Shown here in pieces: positions 19,657-45,687 of a stretch of 64,000 bases of DNA. The stretch's first letter is position 1, and every line of letters begins with the position of its first letter. The DNA is taken from the NCBI GenBank assembly GCA_046290225.1, contig JBKAGE010000070.1:1-64000 (forward strand). Reading direction: 5' to 3'. Under the pieces are notes generated by a model that made no database searches, was not told the DNA's origin, and saw nothing but the letters and a program-made list of their open reading frames with translations. Position numbers and translations under genes: made by a program. This DNA comes from Bradymonadia bacterium (GTDB lineage Bacteria; Myxococcota_A; Bradymonadia; UBA7976; UBA1532).

Positions 19657-20928
19657 TCAACTCAGCCGTAGCACCAGATAGCCCACGGCGACGGCGGCGA
19701 GCATCGTGATGCCAGCCCAGCTCACAATCTGAAGACCCTTCGAGGGGCGATGCTCCGGGGGCACCTCGTCACCGAGGATGGCCCGGTGGTTGAGCCACGC
19801 CAGCAGTGGCGCCGTGAGGCATGACAGGATGGTGGCGAGATCCACCATGGCCTTGAGGCTGCCGATGAACAGCGTGATCACCGCCAGCGAGCCCGCGCCG
19901 AGGACCGCGAGGCTCACCCAATACGCTGTGTTGAAACGCCGATCTCCCTTCGTGGGCGCCCAGGCCTGCTCAGGGCCCCGCATGCGCTCGGTGAGTACGG
20001 CGAGGGCTCTGGGGAACCCGTCCACGACGGTGAAGGTGGTGGTGAACATGACCGCAAAGGCGCAGCCTCCGATCATGGGCCGGCTCCACTCCCCAAGAGT
20101 GCTGGCATAGAGTTCGATGATCTGCCCGGCGAAGCCGCCGGCGCTGTTGGCCAGCTCGACGCCGCTGCCGTGCATGACCCCAGCGCCGAGAATCACGAAG
20201 CACACAGCGAGCCCCGCGGCCCCCCAATATCCCAGATGGAAGTCGGCGAGCACGGCCTTCACGGTGGGGCGCTCACCGACATCTTCGCTCCGGGCCAGGG
20301 TCCACATGGAGTGCCACGCGGCGACGTCGATGGCCGAAGGCATCCACCCCACGAGGGCGGCGCAGAAGAACAGATCTTTGGCTTCGATGCCCTGAGGCCA
20401 GAAAGCGAGGGCGCTGAAGTCGAGCTTGGGCAGGGCGAGTGCGGTGGCGGTGACGGTGCTCAGGGTGAGGGCCACCACCATGACTTTGTTGATCCGGTCG
20501 AGCCACCGATACCGCCCAAGGGCGAGCAACGCCGCGCACACGGCCATGGTGCCCCCGGCGATGACCACGGGGGTGCCGGGCAGCCCGAGGGCTTTCTTGG
20601 CGAGGCCCGCGGTGACGAGGGCCACGGCCCCTTGCACGGTGAACATGGTGCCCACGGTGAGCAGGCCGTACACGCCGAGGGCCCACTTGCCCTGCCGCCG
20701 ATAGCCCTCGAGCAGGCTGGTGCCGGTGGCGGCGGCATATTGGGGACCGAATCGAAACGCAGGGTACTTGGCCACGTTGGCCAGCAGCACGAGCCACAAC
20801 AACGCGAAGCCATAGACAGCGCCTGCTCTGGTGGACTGAACGAGATGGCTGACGCCGACGGCGGCGCCAGCGAGCAGCAGGCCAGGACCGAGGGCTCGCA
20901 ACAGACCTCTAGGGGGGTTGGACGACAA
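19657..20928 (-). CDS. NRAMP-superfamily (APC) membrane transporter, putative divalent cation transporter
   Basis: LGPGLLLAGAAVGVSHLVQSTRAGA, GWMP.AID, about 11 hydrophobic segments. Confidence 0.88.
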   Translation of the reverse strand: MSSNPPRGLLRALGPGLLLAGAAVGVSHLVQSTRAGAVYGFALLWLVLLANVAKYPAFRFGPQYAAATGTSLLEGYRRQGKWALGVYGLLTVGTMFTVQGAVALVTAGLAKKALGLPGTPVVIAGGTMAVCAALLALGRYRWLDRINKVMVVALTLSTVTATALALPKLDFSALAFWPQGIEAKDLFFCAALVGWMPSAIDVAAWHSMWTLARSEDVGERPTVKAVLADFHLGYWGAAGLAVCFVILGAGVMHGSGVELANSAGGFAGQIIELYASTLGEWSRPMIGGCAFAVMFTTTFTVVDGFPRALAVLTERMRGPEQAWAPTKGDRRFNTAYWVSLAVLGAGSLAVITLFIGSLKAMVDLATILSCLTAPLLAWLNHRAILGDEVPPEHRPSKGLQIVSWAGITMLAAVAVGYLVLRLS

Positions 20929-20947
20929 CAGCGGTGCTCCTGGTCAG

Positions 20948-21347
20948 GCGGACGATCCCGCCTTCGGCGCGATCTGTAGCGGACGCCTGCGCTTCGCGCA
21001 AAGCTGTAGCGGACGCCTGCTTCGGCTGCGCCTTGCAGAGCTGTAGCGGACGCCGAGTCTGCCTCCGGCAGCCTGAGCTGTAGCTTTCTAAGAGAGTTAT
21101 GGTGTGTCTGGTGGGCTTCTCAACCCCGATTGGGGCTTACGCCGGCACTGGTACGTCAAAGGCCACAACGTTCGCGGTAGACGAGCCCACGCCCCCAAAG
21201 TGATCTTCAAAAAGCTACAGGGAATTTGCCGTAGGCAAATGAGCGTCCGCTACAGCTCTGCGCGAAGCGCAGGCGTCCGCTACAGGCTGTCGCCGTAAGG
21301 CGATGACCGTCCGCTACAGGCGGTGCCAAAGGCACGGCCGTCCGCTA
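20948..21347. repeat. Palindromic element E1: five direct copies of (CTGTA)GCGGACG(CC), a central core of about 123 bp, then five inverted copies
   Basis: CTGTAGCGGACGCC at 20974, 21004 and 21041, with partial copies at 20948 and 21078. Inverted CGTCCGCTA(CAG) at 21244, 21274, 21308 and 21339, with a partial copy at 21211. Each 16-23 nt spacer carries its own mini-hairpin. Confidence 0.95.
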
Positions 21348-21758
21348 TTCGCTCGCGTAAGAGCGAATGCGCTCTACCATACTGAAGAAGCCATTCCGCC
21401 GGTTGAAGCTCAGGTGACTCTGCAACCCCAGCTGCTCGAAGAGCGCGTCGATGTCGATGCCTCGAATCTCGGCCCTGGTCTTGAAATTGTAGGTGGCCAG
21501 CAGCACGGCGATGAGGCCCTTGACGATGTGGGCGTCGCTGTCTGCGGTGATGGCGATGGCCTCGGCGCCGTCGGTGTCACGGCTCACCGTCTCGGAGGTC
21601 ATCCACACCTGACTGACGCAGCCCCGTACGCGGGTCTCTTCGTTTTTGTCGCTCTCGGGCATCGGCGGCAGGGCCTTGCCGAGATCGATCAGGTAGCGGT
21701 AGCGGTCTTCCCAGTCGTCGAGCAGCTCAAAGTTCTCGATCAGCTCTTGCAGGCTCAT
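21345..21758 (-). CDS. sufE: SufE-family Fe-S cluster sulfur acceptor
   Basis: F..LDDWEDRYRYLIDLG, VRGCVSQVW, ADSDAHIVKGL, LS.NRRNGF. Confidence 0.95.
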   Translation of the reverse strand: MSLQELIENFELLDDWEDRYRYLIDLGKALPPMPESDKNEETRVRGCVSQVWMTSETVSRDTDGAEAIAITADSDAHIVKGLIAVLLATYNFKTRAEIRGIDIDALFEQLGLQSHLSFNRRNGFFSMVERIRSYASE

Positions 21759-21859
21759 GTGCTCTCTCAATGCGTCATGTTCGAGGGCGCTATGATGGCG
21801 CCACGGGGTGAGATACACCAGAGCCTGTCGACGTTCCGAGAGCCTTCAATGAGGACGAG

Positions 21860-42355: not shown

Positions 42356-43486
42356 TTATGAGATGCCCAGCCCCTGCTCCACCAGCGACATGCACAGCGC
42401 GTGAATCGCCTTGCGGTCAGGTGATTTGGGCAATGGGTGCTCCCCCGAGCGATAGATGGCCTCGAGGGCGGCATCTTCGCCCTCGGCCCACTCGATGAGC
42501 TGGTCGTAAGACCACGCCCCCTTCCGAATGGCGATCAACTCTTCGGCGTCGATGTCGCCCCGCCACACGTTCACCTTGCCCGTGGTCAGGATCTCGCGGC
42601 CCATGCGCAACAAACGCACGAGGTGGCCGGCATGCTTCGTGTCGTAGCCATACTTCGCCTCGAGGGCTGCCCGGGTGGGGTTGCGCTCGCGCTTCCACCG
42701 GGCATAGCTCTTGGCCTCGGCCTCGGCGGCCCGGTAGCGACGCTCCTTGTCCATCCACTCGATGAAGTTCTCGTCGTAGCCGATGTGCCGCGCCGCGGCG
42801 AAGAAGCTCTCTTGCTGGCCGATCTCCAGCTCGCTGAGATAGGCGGCCATGCGGCCCTGGATCTCGATCTTGTTCGAAGCCGGCAAGTCGCCGAAGTCGA
42901 TGGACCAGCTGTCGATCTTCTTCTGCACCGCCGCCAGGGCCGCCTGGAGCTGATCTCGAGGCATGAGGCTGCGATCAGGCAGATCGAAGTCGGCCCGGCT
43001 GGGGGCTTTGATCTCCCCGCCGGTGTGCCACCGGTAGTGCAACTTGATGCGCTTGAGCTGCGCGGCGGCATAGCCGGAGAAGGTGTGCTTGGCTTTTGCC
43101 GAGAGGAACATGTCCCGGTGAGCCCGCAGCTGCTCGCCCACGGGGGTCATGCGGCGCACCTCGGCGTCGCGGCTGAAGAGCACGTCGAGGATGTTCGGGT
43201 TCGAGTCGGTGGCGAGCTTGACGAACTTCCTGATCTCGTAGACCGAACCCTCGAGCTTGGTCTCCCGACAGATGACCTTCTCTTCTTCGGTCATGTCGTC
43301 GAAGAAGGCCTGAATCTGGCTGCTCTTGTCGGCCTGTTCGAAGCTGCCGAGGGTGCCGAGGTAGTAGTCTTTCGGCGGCACGGCGACGCCCTTGACGTCG
43401 ACATCGGACCCGTCGGTGTGGATGCCATAACAGCGTGATCCGGTGACCACGAGCAGATGTGTGTGAGCGAGCAGGTCGAAGTTCAC
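42356..43486 (-). CDS. DNA pol beta-superfamily predicted nucleotidyltransferase (YcgL/RlaP-like)
   Basis: GS.CYG.HT..SDVDVKG, NPNILD.L, FSGYA..QL, GYDTKHA.HL.RLL.MG.E.L. Confidence 0.92.
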   Translation of the reverse strand: MNFDLLAHTHLLVVTGSRCYGIHTDGSDVDVKGVAVPPKDYYLGTLGSFEQADKSSQIQAFFDDMTEEEKVICRETKLEGSVYEIRKFVKLATDSNPNILDVLFSRDAEVRRMTPVGEQLRAHRDMFLSAKAKHTFSGYAAAQLKRIKLHYRWHTGGEIKAPSRADFDLPDRSLMPRDQLQAALAAVQKKIDSWSIDFGDLPASNKIEIQGRMAAYLSELEIGQQESFFAAARHIGYDENFIEWMDKERRYRAAEAEAKSYARWKRERNPTRAALEAKYGYDTKHAGHLVRLLRMGREILTTGKVNVWRGDIDAEELIAIRKGAWSYDQLIEWAEGEDAALEAIYRSGEHPLPKSPDRKAIHALCMSLVEQGLGIS

Positions 43487-43597: not shown

Positions 43598-44104
43598 ATG
43601 TGGTGGTTGTGCCTGTGTAGGCAGTCGTCGCTTCGCTCCGCCTGCGTAGGCGCCGGGCCTTCGGCAGCCCTGCGGGCCGCCTCGTCTGGCGCGTACACGT
43701 TCGGGCATCCGCTTGCGCGGAACCCCTCCGGGTAGGCAGGGTCGCTCAATGCTAACGCATTGTTTGCTCGCTCCCCTGCGTAAAAAGTCAGTTCTGGTGT
43801 GACTTTGCACTGATTCCGGCGCTGCTGGGGCTTTCGCCGAGCCTTGGGGCTCAGAGGCTTGCACGTTCGCGGTAGGTCGAATCCCGGCGGGGTTCAGCAA
43901 CGAGATACAGAAGAAGCTCTTTACGCAGGGGAGCGAGCGAAAAGGGCGAAGCCCTGAGCGACCCTGCCTACCCGGAGGCCTGCTCGCGCCAGCGAGCGTG
44001 CCGACGTGTACGCAGCTCCAAGGCGGGCCGCAGGCCGGCCGACAGAGCTGCCTACGCAGGCAGAGCGAAGCGATGACTGCCTACCAGGGCTCAGCCACAA
44101 CACA
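43598..44104. repeat. Palindromic element E2: imperfect inverted arms of about 185 bp around a 135-bp core
   Basis: Perfect inverted blocks 43766-43784/43920-43938 (19 bp) and 43725-43748/43955-43978 (24 bp). A near-perfect GTAGGCAGTCRTCGCTTCGCTCYGCCTGCGTAGGC block lies near the outer ends. Unrelated mini-hairpins lie between the blocks. Confidence 0.95.
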
Positions 44105-44229
44105 CGCCACCCCGCCGCATTTGACGCTCGACAACTCGGCCCACGACAGGCCCCTTTGAGGGGCATACAACGACCATGGCCTTCACAAAAAAGCCGGCAT
44201 AGGATGCAGACGCAATGAAGGGGAATGAC

Positions 44230-45687
44230 ATGGGAAGACAACGCACCGAGCGCCTGCTGATGTGGGCCCTTCGAACCACAGTTGTGTTGTCCTTGACGGG
44301 CACCGGTTGTGACGACGAGTCGAGTGACACAACACCTGTCGACATGGGCACGCCCCCTGACTCGGCGACTGTCGACCAGGGGCCTGACCCCAGTGACATG
44401 GGAGCCGATTCTGACGCTGCGTTCGACGAGTCTGACGCGTCGCCGTGGCGCAGCATCGAGGCCGCCAACACCTTGCCTGCAGCTCACCCCCTCGCCGAGG
44501 GGCAACATCGGTTCCTGTATGACACCTTCGGCGTCGAGCTGTACGACGACTGGCCTCCCACCGAGTTCCTCTTGCAGCTCATGGAAGACGAGCCCGAGAT
44601 CTTCGGCGATCAGTTCAGCAGCTTCGGGTTTATCCCTGATCCCGATGATGACCTCCCTGTGGGCTTCAAGCGCGGCGTCACCGATCCGGAGCGGGTCCAT
44701 CACACGTGCGCCGTGTGTCACGTAGGCGCGCTGCCCGATGGCCGACTCTGGCTCGGCGCCCCCAATGGCGCCCTCGACTTCGGTCGATTCAGAGTGGAGG
44801 TCGACCGTCGATGGGTCGCCGCAGGCAACCCCACCACACTCGGCGAGGGCATACCCGAGAAGTTTCTGGCCCTCGGACCTGGCCGCACCAACGCAGCGAG
44901 CAACGATTTCCGGGAAGTGGTGCCAGCGGATTACCCCCCGTACTTCAGGCTCGGCGAGCTCAGCCATTTGAACTACCTGGGCACCGGCCGAAACACCCAG
45001 ACCGAGGTCTACCTGTCGATCTACACCTTCGGCGCCGGCGCCCCCGACGACGAGGAGGCGCCGACGCCGTTTCCCGAAGCAGAGCGCGCCGCAGCGCTCG
45101 TGGACTTCATGGCGCAGATCGAGCCCCCGGCCCCGCCAGCGGAGATGCTCGCCGACGACGACACCATCGCCCGTGGTCGTACGGTGTTCGAAGAGGCTGG
45201 TTGTGGGCTGTGCCATCACCCCGATGACGTGGGTGAGAATGGCGTGACCCCCATCGACAAGGCTGAGAACGGCCGTGACCGCCTGCCTGGAGAAGATGCA
45301 GAGTGGCCCGAGGGCTCTATCCACACCAGCCCGCTGCACCGCGTGCTCATCGATGGTGATGGTGAAGGCGGTGGAGGTGTAGACGAGGGCCGCCTAGCGT
45401 TGATCCGGTTCATCGGACGTCATCGCCTGCGCACTTTGCCCACGGATGGCTATCGCGTGACGCCGCTGCAGGGGCTGTGGGCCACGGCGCCCTACCTGCA
45501 CAATGGCAGCGTGCCCACATTGGAAGATGTGTTGAAGCCCGTCTCAGATCGCCCGACCACGTTCGATCGCAGTGGCTTCACCATCGACACCTCACTGCCA
45601 CCCAACAGCAACCGGGGCCATGCCTTTGGTGTCGACCTCTCTGCTGAGGACAAGGCCGCACTGGTTGCTTATTTGATGTCGCTGTAG
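44230..45687 (+). CDS. Di-heme c-type cytochrome lipoprotein (RoxA/CCP-like C-terminus)
   Basis: Lipobox GTGC; CAVCH and CGLCH; GY...PL.GLWATAPYLHNGSVPTL; SN.GH.FG. Confidence 0.9.
   Translation: MGRQRTERLLMWALRTTVVLSLTGTGCDDESSDTTPVDMGTPPDSATVDQGPDPSDMGADSDAAFDESDASPWRSIEAANTLPAAHPLAEGQHRFLYDTFGVELYDDWPPTEFLLQLMEDEPEIFGDQFSSFGFIPDPDDDLPVGFKRGVTDPERVHHTCAVCHVGALPDGRLWLGAPNGALDFGRFRVEVDRRWVAAGNPTTLGEGIPEKFLALGPGRTNAASNDFREVVPADYPPYFRLGELSHLNYLGTGRNTQTEVYLSIYTFGAGAPDDEEAPTPFPEAERAAALVDFMAQIEPPAPPAEMLADDDTIARGRTVFEEAGCGLCHHPDDVGENGVTPIDKAENGRDRLPGEDAEWPEGSIHTSPLHRVLIDGDGEGGGGVDEGRLALIRFIGRHRLRTLPTDGYRVTPLQGLWATAPYLHNGSVPTLEDVLKPVSDRPTTFDRSGFTIDTSLPPNSNRGHAFGVDLSAEDKAALVAYLMSL

What the first reader, a model, noticed from the sequence alone, without database searches (positions are those of the whole stretch)
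21095..21180. Two different palindromic elements 22.7 kb apart share one gap-free 86-nt core scaffold
Seen: 21095-21180 (centre of E1) and 43790-43875 (centre of E2) align with no indels as AGTTMTGGTGTG-N24-TGGGGCTTWCGCCG-N12-CARAGGC-N4-ACGTTCGCGGTAG. The four blocks match at 43 of 46 positions, while the intervening segments keep identical length but match at only 10 of 40 (background). The enclosing inverted arms have different sequences (GTAGCGGACG vs GTAGGCAG types) but the same architecture. Knowledge: REP/REPIN/BIME and MITE families normally conserve the ends and vary the interior, which is the reverse of this pattern. Inference: a family of non-coding elements in which a fixed-geometry core is the functional unit. 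It could be phased protein-binding sites (origin, recombination site, invertible promoter) or an RNA scaffold carrying variable guide-like segments, acted on in trans because no cognate enzyme is adjacent. I do not recognise the motif.
Basis: partly seen in the sequence, partly recalled or inferred. Interest (0 to 1): 0.9.

Follow-up and report, generated by a model that had tools for sequence, protein, structure and literature searches.

The report
Shared centre of two hairpin-repeat families
The two look-alike 86-base stretches are the conserved middles of a roughly 70-copy, gene-less hairpin repeat that fills gaps between genes in one uncultured myxobacterial genome, a variant of the known REP/BIME-type bacterial repeats and not a guide-RNA system.

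Summary
In detail: window 21095-21180 and 43790-43875 align without gaps at 53 of 86 positions, 43 of 46 in the four blocks and 10 of 40 between them.

It is not a two-copy curiosity. A profile finds 70-71 copies in this 8.6-Mb genome. It finds none in 27 genomes of the same family and nothing credible in 112 of the class. All copies are intergenic and they favour gaps between convergent genes.

There are two subfamilies, about 27 E1-like and 42 E2-like. Their arms are unrelated in sequence. Both are arrays of small hairpins headed by GTAG, inverted around a homologous asymmetric centre of about 130-140 nt.

The closest known kind is GTAG-tagged REP dimers or clusters with a conserved spacer, that is BIME/REPIN-type repeats (PMC3733652). 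No RAYT, IS110 or Rfam family matches.

The guide-RNA reading fails. There is no shared fold, no match of the variable segments to their flanks, and no orientation bias.

The E2-type arms also carry a broken four-helix-bundle (23S-IVS-type) gene once, so arms and centres are exchangeable modules. The scan has noted this repeat family and such frames before.

The function of the centre is inferred, not shown. Verdict: new variant of a known kind, moderate interest.

The parts
20946..21347 (.). E1, whole element of subfamily A (about 400 bp), between the stop of a SufE gene (21345-21818, minus strand) and the predicted start of an Nramp gene (19657-20928, minus strand)
   Evidence: Sequence read; ends taken from the alignment of 27 A copies; fold z = -13.2; neighbours.
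20946..21084 (+). E1 left arm: head-to-tail array of GTAG-headed units. Each unit is a 12-nt constant part plus a different small hairpin with a UNCG-type loop. The arm ends in a lone GTAGC next to the centre.
   Evidence: The 10-mer GTAGCGGACG occurs 208 times in the genome, 160 of them within 450 nt of a core.
21085..21213 (+). E1 asymmetric centre (129 nt), homologous to the E2 centre over its whole length
   Evidence: Alignment A2 of 32 copies.
21095..21180 (+). The reported 86-nt core of E1. Blocks at 21095-21106, 21131-21144, 21157-21163 and 21168-21180.
21214..21347 (-). E1 right arm: the same kind of GTAG-unit array in inverted orientation. The constant 12-mers pair with those of the left arm. 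The small hairpins between them differ from those on the left.
43600..44101 (.). E2, whole element of subfamily B (about 500 bp, plus roughly 40-60 nt of poorly conserved outer sequence on each side), between divergent genes 42356-43486 (minus strand, RlaP-like) and 44215-45687 (plus strand, cytochrome c)
   Evidence: other copies align to 43600-44101; neighbours.
43600..43782 (+). E2 left arm: long-range pairing segments that begin with GTAG/GTAC/GTAA, interrupted by local hairpins
43783..43921 (+). E2 asymmetric centre (139 nt). Its length is 138-141 nt in the 25 core-bearing B elements whose inner arms are intact on both sides.
43790..43875 (+). The reported 86-nt core of E2
43922..44101 (-). 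E2 right arm, inverted partner of the left arm

Best explanation
E1 and E2 are one member each of two subfamilies of a single, lineage-restricted, gene-less intergenic repeat with about 70 copies. Each element is a long DNA palindrome. Its arms are arrays of REP-type hairpin units headed by GTAG, and the two arm arrays face each other across an asymmetric centre of about 130-140 nt.

Shown: the copy number, the intergenic location, the two arm types, the homologous centre, and a conservation pattern in which four blocks of fixed spacing are the slowest-changing part.

Inferred: the whole hairpin-forming unit was copied around the genome as a non-autonomous element, in the manner of REPIN/BIME-type repeats. 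Arms and centres are exchangeable modules, because the same B arms once carry a four-helix-bundle gene instead of the centre. The four blocks are a cis-acting protein-binding module. Most likely they are the site read by whatever factor copies the element. Failing that, they are a nucleoid-protein site like the IHF site in the middle of E. coli BIME-1. The segments between the blocks are length-constrained filler that drifts and is reshuffled between copies by gene conversion.

Sitting mostly behind gene ends, the hairpin arrays probably also act as 3'-end hairpins or terminators for the neighbouring genes. In subfamily A a T-run follows the last hairpin of each arm on the inward-reading strand.
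For: - Copy number: 70 copies by nhmmer and 71 by model R1.
- Arms: inverted arms were detected for 65 of 70 copies. The other five are C75_189065, C47_50918, C82_48597 and C46_38054, with no collinear arm, and C69_145 at a contig end.
- Location: 0 of 70 copies overlap a predicted gene. Flanking genes are convergent in 33, co-directional in 30, divergent in 5 and undetermined in 2. Random gaps would give about 25/50/25%.
- Arm units: both arm types are built of GTAG-headed hairpins, and the hairpin modules are used in different combinations in different copies.
- Literature: the description of GTAG REPs, their head-to-tail clusters and head-to-head dimers with conserved spacers (PMC3733652, sections 5, 7 and 14) fits this layout.
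- Conservation: within B the blocks are 0.80-0.94 identical and the two long spacers 0.65-0.66. Between A and B the blocks are 0.64-0.85 and the spacers 0.24-0.37.
- Fixed geometry: the centre is 138-141 nt long in 25 B elements.
- Centre integral to B: of 26 B frames with intact inner arms, 25 hold the centre and 1 holds a PF05635 pseudogene.
- Mosaic reshuffling: alleles of the variable segments reassort among copies.
- Recent, private expansion: 0 of 27 same-family genomes hold the centre or the A arms. The B arms give only two short matches of 36-43 nt.
- Terminator-like feature: a hairpin plus T-run was called on the inward-reading strand of the E1 right arm.
Against: - No mobilising enzyme was identified. 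There is no Y1/RAYT, no IS110, no IS630-type DDE, and no multi-copy IS in the assembly. The only candidates present are 4 TnpB genes, 1 DDE_Tnp_1, 2 RTs and 8 integrase-type hits, none linked to the repeat.
- No clean target-site duplication was seen for A. Only a few B copies have CTAG-like ends.
- No empty site could be recovered. Relatives are about 39% identical in the flanking protein and not syntenic.
- Protein binding to the blocks is pure inference.
- Some single-strand signal exists. Two local hairpins in B keep pairing through G-T only on the plus strand. One helix in A shows a C-G to T-A exchange, 14 against 9 copies. The one invariant hairpin has a loop that reads GNRA on the minus strand. 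An RNA or single-stranded-DNA role is therefore not excluded.
- The assembly is a metagenome bin of 83 contigs, so a repeated transposase gene could be missing.
Confidence: 0.55

Rival explanations
1. The centre is a small structured RNA. Read-through or own transcription produces the long arm-arm stem. A double-strand RNase such as RNase III cuts the stem, as in 23S rRNA intervening sequences, and releases the centre of about 140 nt as a stable RNA.
For: - The same B arms enclose a four-helix-bundle (PF05635) gene, the classic cargo of RNase III-excised 23S IVS hairpins (PMC4990558 passages).
- Local hairpins H0 and H1 in B are 0.86-1.00 canonical on the plus strand but fall to 0.38-0.65 at three pairs on the minus strand.
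- One compensatory pair is seen in A.
- The loop of the invariant hairpin varies only at the N of a GNRA reading.
Against: - No fold is shared by A and B beyond a 3-bp hairpin, at -3.5 kcal/mol with a covariation term of -0.04.
- The strand hints conflict: wobble favours the plus strand, the GNRA reading the minus strand.
- The wobble counts rest on few independent events.
- There is no orientation bias in co-directional gene pairs, 16 against 14.
- G-T and A-C mismatches between the arms are balanced, 107 against 130 in A and 286 against 293 in B.
- No sigma-70-like promoter was found.
- No Rfam family matches.
Confidence: 0.15
2. The centre is itself a miniature mobile insertion that targets hairpin tips, for example a gene-less relic of an IS110-type element whose non-coding end encodes a bridge-type guide RNA. 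This would explain one centre in two different palindromes and 'guide-like' variable loops.
For: - One centre occurs in two unrelated arm sets.
- The spacers between blocks differ between the arm sets.
- IS110-family elements are known to insert into REP sequences (recalled, not checked here).
- The four-helix-bundle cargo in the B frame at C77 is flanked by an 8-bp direct repeat, so insertion into a frame tip does happen (sequence).
Against: - There are 0 hits to either IS110 transposase domain in a 99.4%-complete genome.
- The arms are homologous over about 200 nt per side within each subfamily, so the whole palindrome is the copied unit, not the centre.
- No centre is found outside these two frames.
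- The variable segments do not match local flanks above control.
- No conserved fold was found.
Confidence: 0.05
3. The elements are host-kept insulators or terminators between genes. The centre has no function of its own. The block pattern reflects uneven mutation or patchy gene conversion rather than selection.
For: - Copies are enriched between convergent genes, 33 of 68.
- Hairpin arrays with T-runs face inward in A.
- Extensive module reshuffling shows that gene conversion is active.
- There is no orientation bias relative to genes or GC skew, 33 against 30.
Against: - 43/46 against 10/40 identity at constant length is hard to obtain without constraint on the blocks.
- Block identity between A and B equals that within A.
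- The centre is present in 25 of 26 intact B frames.
Confidence: 0.2

Closest known systems
GTAG-tagged REP elements, their head-to-head dimers and clusters (Di Nocera, De Gregorio and Rocco 2013, PMC3733652); REPINs; BIMEs of enterobacteria
   Same: - Small GC-rich hairpins carry an unpaired GTAG at one end.
- Copy number is high and the location is extragenic, preferentially behind genes and between convergent or co-directional genes.
- Units sit in inverted orientation and can fold into one large stem-loop.
- Stems change in a complementary way and G-T pairs occur.
- Head-to-head dimers have conserved spacers.
- Families are species-specific.
   Different: - The spacer is 130-140 nt, against 20-100 bp in the paper.
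- It has four conserved blocks and is shared by two unrelated arm families.
- Each arm is a head-to-tail array of 3-4 units with different hairpins, not a single REP.
- No RAYT gene is present in the genome.
- The host is a Bradymonadia genome; the paper's text has no myxobacterial example ('myxococc' 0 hits).
BIME-1 / RIB-RIP elements of E. coli (two inverted REPs around a central IHF site). Recalled from memory. IHF recruitment by REPs was seen only in the abstract listing of PMC3479197.
   Same: Palindromic REP arms surround an asymmetric, conserved, non-coding centre that acts as a protein-binding site. Tens of copies lie between genes.
   Different: No IHF-type consensus was recognised in the centre. 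The centre here is several times longer. Binding is untested.
23S rRNA intervening sequences and other hairpin cassettes carrying an S23p / PF05635 four-helix-bundle gene (PMC4990558, passages read)
   Same: Long complementary ends form a stem around a cargo. In this genome a PF05635 pseudogene sits in a B-type frame (C77) and an intact PF05635 gene sits in a 1.1-kb palindrome with 288-nt arms (C72).
   Different: E1 and E2 carry no gene and are not in rRNA. Their centre has no similarity to the resident PF05635 genes or cassettes.
MITEs such as Correia/NEMIS elements
   Same: Gene-less, hundreds of bp, inverted ends, many intergenic copies, lineage-specific.
   Different: No parent IS was found. 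There is no consistent target duplication. The interior, not the termini, is the conserved part.

Membership tests
GTAG-tagged REP (Di Nocera 2013) | Small palindromic unit (20-40 bp) with an unpaired GTAG-type tetranucleotide at one end | tested here: met
   A arms consist of a 12-nt constant part containing GTAG plus an 18-25-nt hairpin per unit. B arm segments start with GTAG/GTAC/GTAA. The definition was read.
GTAG-tagged REP (Di Nocera 2013) | High copy number, extragenic, mostly behind genes | tested here: met
   The A 10-mer occurs 208 times and the B 10-mer 95 times. 0 of 70 elements overlap predicted genes. 33 are convergent and 5 divergent.
REPIN | Two inverted REPs plus spacer copied as one unit | tested here: met
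   Copies are homologous from arm to arm within each subfamily.
REPIN | A cognate RAYT (Y1 HUH transposase) gene in the genome, itself flanked by the REPs | tested here: not met
   PF01797 gave 0 matches in a 99.4%-complete assembly, while the control genomes were detected. The assembly has 83 contigs, so loss in assembly cannot be fully excluded.
BIME | REPs in regularly alternating orientation separated by conserved motifs | tested here: not met
   Units run head-to-tail within each arm and invert only once, across the centre.
MITE | Terminal inverted repeats plus a target-site duplication, and a related transposase-bearing parent | tested here: inconclusive
   Inverted ends: yes. Duplication: none seen for A, and CTAG-like ends in only a few B copies. 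Only 6 of 35 B copies have symmetric outer ends of at least 71%. No parent IS was found.
IS110 bridge-RNA / seekRNA locus | Adjacent or genomic IS110-family (DEDD) recombinase and a conserved two-loop RNA fold | tested here: not met
   PF01548 and PF02371 gave 0 matches. No conserved fold was found.
Any Rfam 15 family | Match at the gathering score | tested here: not met
   0 matches in the window. At E up to 10 there were only 3 implausible weak hits, all in the arms. No tRNA or tmRNA was found.
23S-IVS-type hairpin cassette | PF05635 gene enclosed by a long stem | tested here: not met
   E1 and E2 have no ORF conserved across copies. The feature is met only by the sister elements at C77 (frameshifted) and C72 (intact).

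The most novel reading that the evidence does not exclude
Hairpin 'frames' and their centres are separable modules, and the four-block centre is what makes a frame multiply. It would be a new kind of non-autonomous element whose mobilisation or retention signal lies in the interior rather than at the ends. It would be read by an unidentified factor, possibly the four-helix-bundle (Avd/S23p-like) protein that is the only gene ever found inside such frames in this genome. The centre occupies 25 of 26 intact B frames and about 27 A frames, whereas two-armed A palindromes without it are few (three seen).
Probability: 0.12. Interest if true: 0.7.

Novelty: new variant of a known kind. Interest (0 to 1): 0.35.

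Why it matters
It gives a clean natural example in which the interior of a bacterial palindromic repeat, not its ends, is the constrained part, and in which the same interior has been combined with two unrelated sets of hairpin arms.

With the sister elements that carry four-helix-bundle genes, it supports a picture of modular 'frame plus cargo' hairpin elements. That picture links REP/BIME repeats with the poorly understood 23S-IVS-type cassettes.

It also shows GTAG-type REP arrays expanding in a genome with no detectable RAYT, which bears on how such repeats spread.

On present evidence it is not a new RNA-guided system.

Tried and rejected
- **Gapped motif scan of the window and public collections:** Occurrence in viral or metagenome contig collections therefore stays unchecked.
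- **Rfam:** nothing at gathering or permissive thresholds. ARAGORN found nothing.
- **Coding:** no frame is open in all copies. Single-base length differences between copies occur inside the centre.
- **Consensus RNA fold on either strand:** only a 3-bp hairpin is common to both subfamilies. Mutual information in B mainly shows linked haplotypes.
- **Guide-like matching of the spacers:** no better than controls against own flanks. Only chance-level 12-14-nt matches elsewhere in the genome.
- **Centre as a decayed fragment of the resident four-helix-bundle genes or cassettes:** no nucleotide or protein-level similarity.
- **Centre or arms in relatives:**
  - BLAST of the E2 centre: 0 of 40 relatives.
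  - Model R1: 0 of 27 family genomes.
  - Model R1 on the class: 5 of 112 other genomes gave one weak hit each (E 0.0015-0.0098). None sits in a long palindrome; one has only a 20-nt, 80% inverted pair around it.
- **Plasmid and phage collections:** no match.
- **Empty-site test for E2:** homologues of the left gene are about 39% identical and the right gene is not nearby, so the test says nothing.
- **Strand bias:** none relative to neighbouring genes (16 against 14), to GC skew (33 against 30, 7 weak) or in arm mismatch types.
- **Expression:** no RNA holder was listed for the window stretch.
- **TnpB-only elements:** their ends are unrelated to the repeat.
- **Sigma-54 and ECF promoter readings of the blocks:** considered by eye and dropped because the spacing does not fit. 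No tool test was run.

Full report
**1. Observation**

Window 21095-21180 (E1) and 43790-43875 (E2) align without gaps at 53 of 86 positions.

| Segment | Matches |
|---|---|
| Block 1 | 11/12 |
| Block 2 | 13/14 |
| Block 3 | 6/7 |
| Block 4 | 13/13 |
| Spacer N24 | 6/24 |
| Spacer N12 | 4/12 |
| Spacer N4 | 0/4 |

That is 43/46 in the blocks against 10/40 in the spacers, exactly as reported. The best unrelated ungapped match to E1 in the window is 42/86. Both stretches lie in the middle of long imperfect palindromes. Single-strand folds of 441 and 491 nt give z = -13.2 and -15.0 against shuffles.

**2. It is a large family**

- The window lies in an 8.58-Mb assembly of 83 contigs, 99.4% complete.
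- Iterated nhmmer seeded with the two cores finds 68, then 70, 70 and 70 copies. An Infernal sequence model built from 30 copies (A3, R1) finds 71.
- Inverted arms around the core were detected for 65 of 70 copies. Four had no collinear arm and one lies at a contig end.
- Whole-element alignments show two subfamilies:
  - about 27 E1-like copies (A, 370-430 bp);
  - about 42 E2-like copies (B, about 470-570 bp).
- My sorting rule put one A-like copy (C75_159768) among the B copies. A few copies are hybrids or truncated.
- Six aberrant copies were dropped before the identity counts: C82_48597, C78_372682, C35_508066, C46_38054, C47_50918 and C34_360978.

**3. Anatomy**

- *A arms.* These are head-to-tail arrays of units made of a constant 12-mer containing GTAG plus a small hairpin. 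The hairpins come from a limited set, are used in different orders in different copies, and differ between the two arms of one copy. The constant 12-mers of the two arms pair with each other. The element ends in a short inverted sequence with no visible target duplication.
- *B arms.* These have long-range pairing segments that begin with GTAG, GTAC or GTAA, interrupted by local hairpins. The local hairpins vary by complementary changes.
- *Outer ends of B.* The outermost 50-60 nt of B are poorly conserved. Only 6 of 35 copies have outer ends at least 71% symmetric.
- *The centre.* The homologous centre is longer than 86 nt. It runs from just inside the last GTAG-type unit on the left to a TACAG-ending stretch on the right. 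It is 129 nt in E1 and 139 nt in E2. In the 25 core-bearing B elements whose inner arms are intact on both sides it is 138-141 nt.

**4. Conservation pattern**

| Comparison | Blocks | Long spacers (N24, N12) | Short spacer (N4) |
|---|---|---|---|
| Within B | 0.80-0.94 | 0.65-0.66 | 0.78 |
| Within A | 0.73-0.87 | 0.79 | 0.56 |
| Between A and B | 0.64-0.85 | 0.37, 0.30 | 0.24 |

- Within B the adjoining arm ends are 0.85-0.91 identical.
- Within A the long spacers are as conserved as the blocks, so they are not 'variable' there.
- Between A and B the blocks are about as similar as within A.
- Within B the spacer sequences form a handful of alleles that occur in different combinations. This, like the arm modules, points to frequent exchange between copies.
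- The contrast between blocks and spacers at strictly constant length argues for constraint on the blocks.

**5. Where the copies sit**

- None of the 70 overlaps a predicted gene. Genes were called with a simple GC3-based ORF caller of my own.
- Flanking genes are convergent in 33 cases, co-directional in 30 (16 in the core's orientation, 14 against it), divergent in 5 and undetermined in 2.
- Elements typically fill the gap up to the neighbouring stop codons.
- Core orientation does not follow local GC skew: 33 against 30, with 7 weak.
- E1 lies between a SufE stop and an Nramp start. E2 lies between an RlaP-like gene and a cytochrome c gene. No mobile-element enzyme is adjacent.

**6. Distribution**

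- The centre was not found in 40 relatives by BLAST or in 27 same-family genomes by model R1.
- Among 112 other genomes of the class, five gave one weak hit each (E 0.0015-0.0098). None lies in a long palindrome.
- The A arms were found in 0 of 27 family genomes. The B arms gave only two matches of 36-43 nt.
- No plasmid or phage record matches.
- The genus is represented by this genome alone.
- Earlier notes of this scan call the organism an uncultured Bradymonadia. I did not verify the name.

**7. Tests of the RNA and guide ideas**

- Rfam: nothing.
- Consensus folding of 32 or 63 copies on either strand leaves only one invariant 3-bp hairpin.
- Within B, two local hairpins stay paired through G-T changes on the plus strand. 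One pair, A-T/G-C/G-T, exceeded all 500 shuffles.
- Within A, one 7-bp helix between the first spacer and the sequence right of the core shows C-G in 14 copies and T-A in 9.
- These helices are not at homologous positions in A and B, and they rest on few independent events.
- The invariant hairpin's loop varies only at one position, which reads as the N of GNRA on the minus strand. This conflicts with the plus-strand wobble.
- Arm-to-arm mismatches are balanced between the G-T and A-C types: 107 against 130 in A and 286 against 293 in B.
- The spacers match their own outside flanks no better than those of other copies.
- No sigma-70-type promoter was called. One terminator-like hairpin plus T-run was called on the inward-reading strand of the E1 right arm. 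The matching T-run on the left arm is visible in most A copies.
- No RNA run was available.

**8. Enzymes**

- Absent from the assembly: Y1/RAYT, IS110 domains and IS630-type DDE.
- Present: four TnpB genes, three of them in a 1.33-kb TnpB-only repeat whose ends are unrelated to this family; one DDE_Tnp_1; two RT genes; eight integrase-type hits.
- Self-comparison shows no multi-copy IS. The B element itself is the most abundant repeat.
- A bin of 83 contigs may have lost repeated genes.

**9. Frames and cargos**

- One element with B arms (C77:107000-107860) has, in place of the centre, about 470 bp with a frameshifted PF05635 (23S_rRNA_IVP, four-helix-bundle) gene. An 8-bp direct repeat that copies the inner end of the right arm flanks it.
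- The only other PF05635 gene (C72:82618-82929, intact) lies in the middle of a 1.1-kb palindrome with 288-nt arms, 96% complementary.
- The terminal 60-88 nt of that palindrome include a run of a 6-nt repeat. At least 14 gene-less elements of about 340 bp share them but have a different centre.
- Two-armed A palindromes and a B palindrome without any centre also exist.
- Arms and centres therefore behave as exchangeable modules. The reported 'one core in two palindromes' is an instance of that.
- The core has no similarity to the PF05635 cassettes.

**10. Comparison with the literature**

- I read the abstract and sections 5, 7 and 14 of Di Nocera et al. 2013 (PMC3733652). They describe:
  - REPs with an unpaired GTAG tag;
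  - families private to one species;
  - head-to-tail clusters;
  - head-to-head dimers 20-100 bp apart that 'as a rule' have conserved spacers;
  - a preference for gaps between convergent and co-directional genes;
  - frequent G-T pairs;
  - REP dimers embedded in longer palindromes.
- All of this fits, except for the size and block structure of the spacer, its sharing by two arm families, and the absence of a RAYT.
- I read passages of Warrier et al. 2016 (PMC4990558) for the IVS design: a stem cut by RNase III around an S23p ORF, and the old idea that the ORF serves mobility.
- REPIN, RAYT and IHF papers were seen only as search listings. The BIME-1/IHF and IS110 bridge-RNA comparisons are recalled.
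- Searches for such repeats in Bradymonas or myxobacteria returned nothing relevant.

**11. Verdict**

- The most likely reading is a non-autonomous hairpin element whose centre is a cis-acting protein-binding module. This is inferred; my confidence in it is about 0.55.
- The RNA-scaffold-with-guides idea is not supported.
- Earlier notes of this scan had already met this family in other pieces of the genome:
  - One follow-up concluded that such repeats are later insertions (e1-4901905; not retested here).
  - Another called a 0.7-kb palindrome an orphan with no second copy (e1-733408). It shares 11 of 56 words with the E2 centre, so it is probably a family member, which contradicts 'orphan'.

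Noticed in passing
G000:C77:107000-107860 (locus L032): An element with subfamily-B arms carries about 470 bp holding a frameshifted PF05635 four-helix-bundle gene instead of the centre. The cargo is flanked by an 8-bp direct repeat that duplicates the inner end of the right arm, as if it had been inserted into the tip of an empty frame.
   Followed up: partly
G000:C72:82266-83361 (locus L034 1149-2244): The only intact PF05635 gene of the genome sits in the middle of a 1.1-kb palindrome with 288-nt arms, 96% complementary. The arms are built of two units of about 100 nt plus a terminal run of a 6-nt repeat.
   Followed up: partly
G000, for example C2:1885-2238, C71:7331-7680, C80:58949-59300, C70:216408-216746 (outside the window): A further gene-less palindromic family of at least 14 copies, about 340 bp each. 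Its terminal 60-88 nt, including the 6-nt repeat run, are shared with the C72 four-helix-bundle element, but its centre of about 190 nt is different.
   Followed up: partly
G000:C79:178175-181443 (locus L069 1676-4943): Two convergent, paralogous reverse-transcriptase genes (540 and 453 aa ORFs). Between them lies a solitary hairpin made of the outermost B arm unit alone.
   Followed up: no
G000:C35:142914-144199, C64:11624-12956, C35:39977-41313: Three copies of a 1.33-kb TnpB-only (IS605-type) element with their own hairpin ends, although no Y1 transposase was found in the genome. A fourth TnpB gene lies at C45:38100.
   Followed up: partly
G000:C50:55530-57157: A 1.6-kb stretch with inverted ends of about 95 nt encloses the genome's only DDE_Tnp_1 gene. 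It is probably a single intact IS.
   Followed up: no
window 20928-20946 and 21345-21347: E1 ends 18 nt before the predicted TTG start of the Nramp gene and touches the SufE stop codon. The element therefore occupies the whole gap of a co-directional gene pair and must lie in the upstream region of the Nramp gene.
   Followed up: no
window 21133-21142 and 43828-43837 (and all copies): The one invariant hairpin of the centre has a 4-nt loop that varies at a single position. On the minus strand it reads as a GNRA tetraloop in nearly all copies, while wobble pairs in neighbouring hairpins favour the plus strand. The conflict is unexplained.
   Followed up: partly
G000:C49:26734-27032, C35:489988-490122, C77:18807-18941: Two-armed palindromes of the B type (one) and the A type (two) lack the centre. 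The B case has also lost the inner arm ends.
   Followed up: partly
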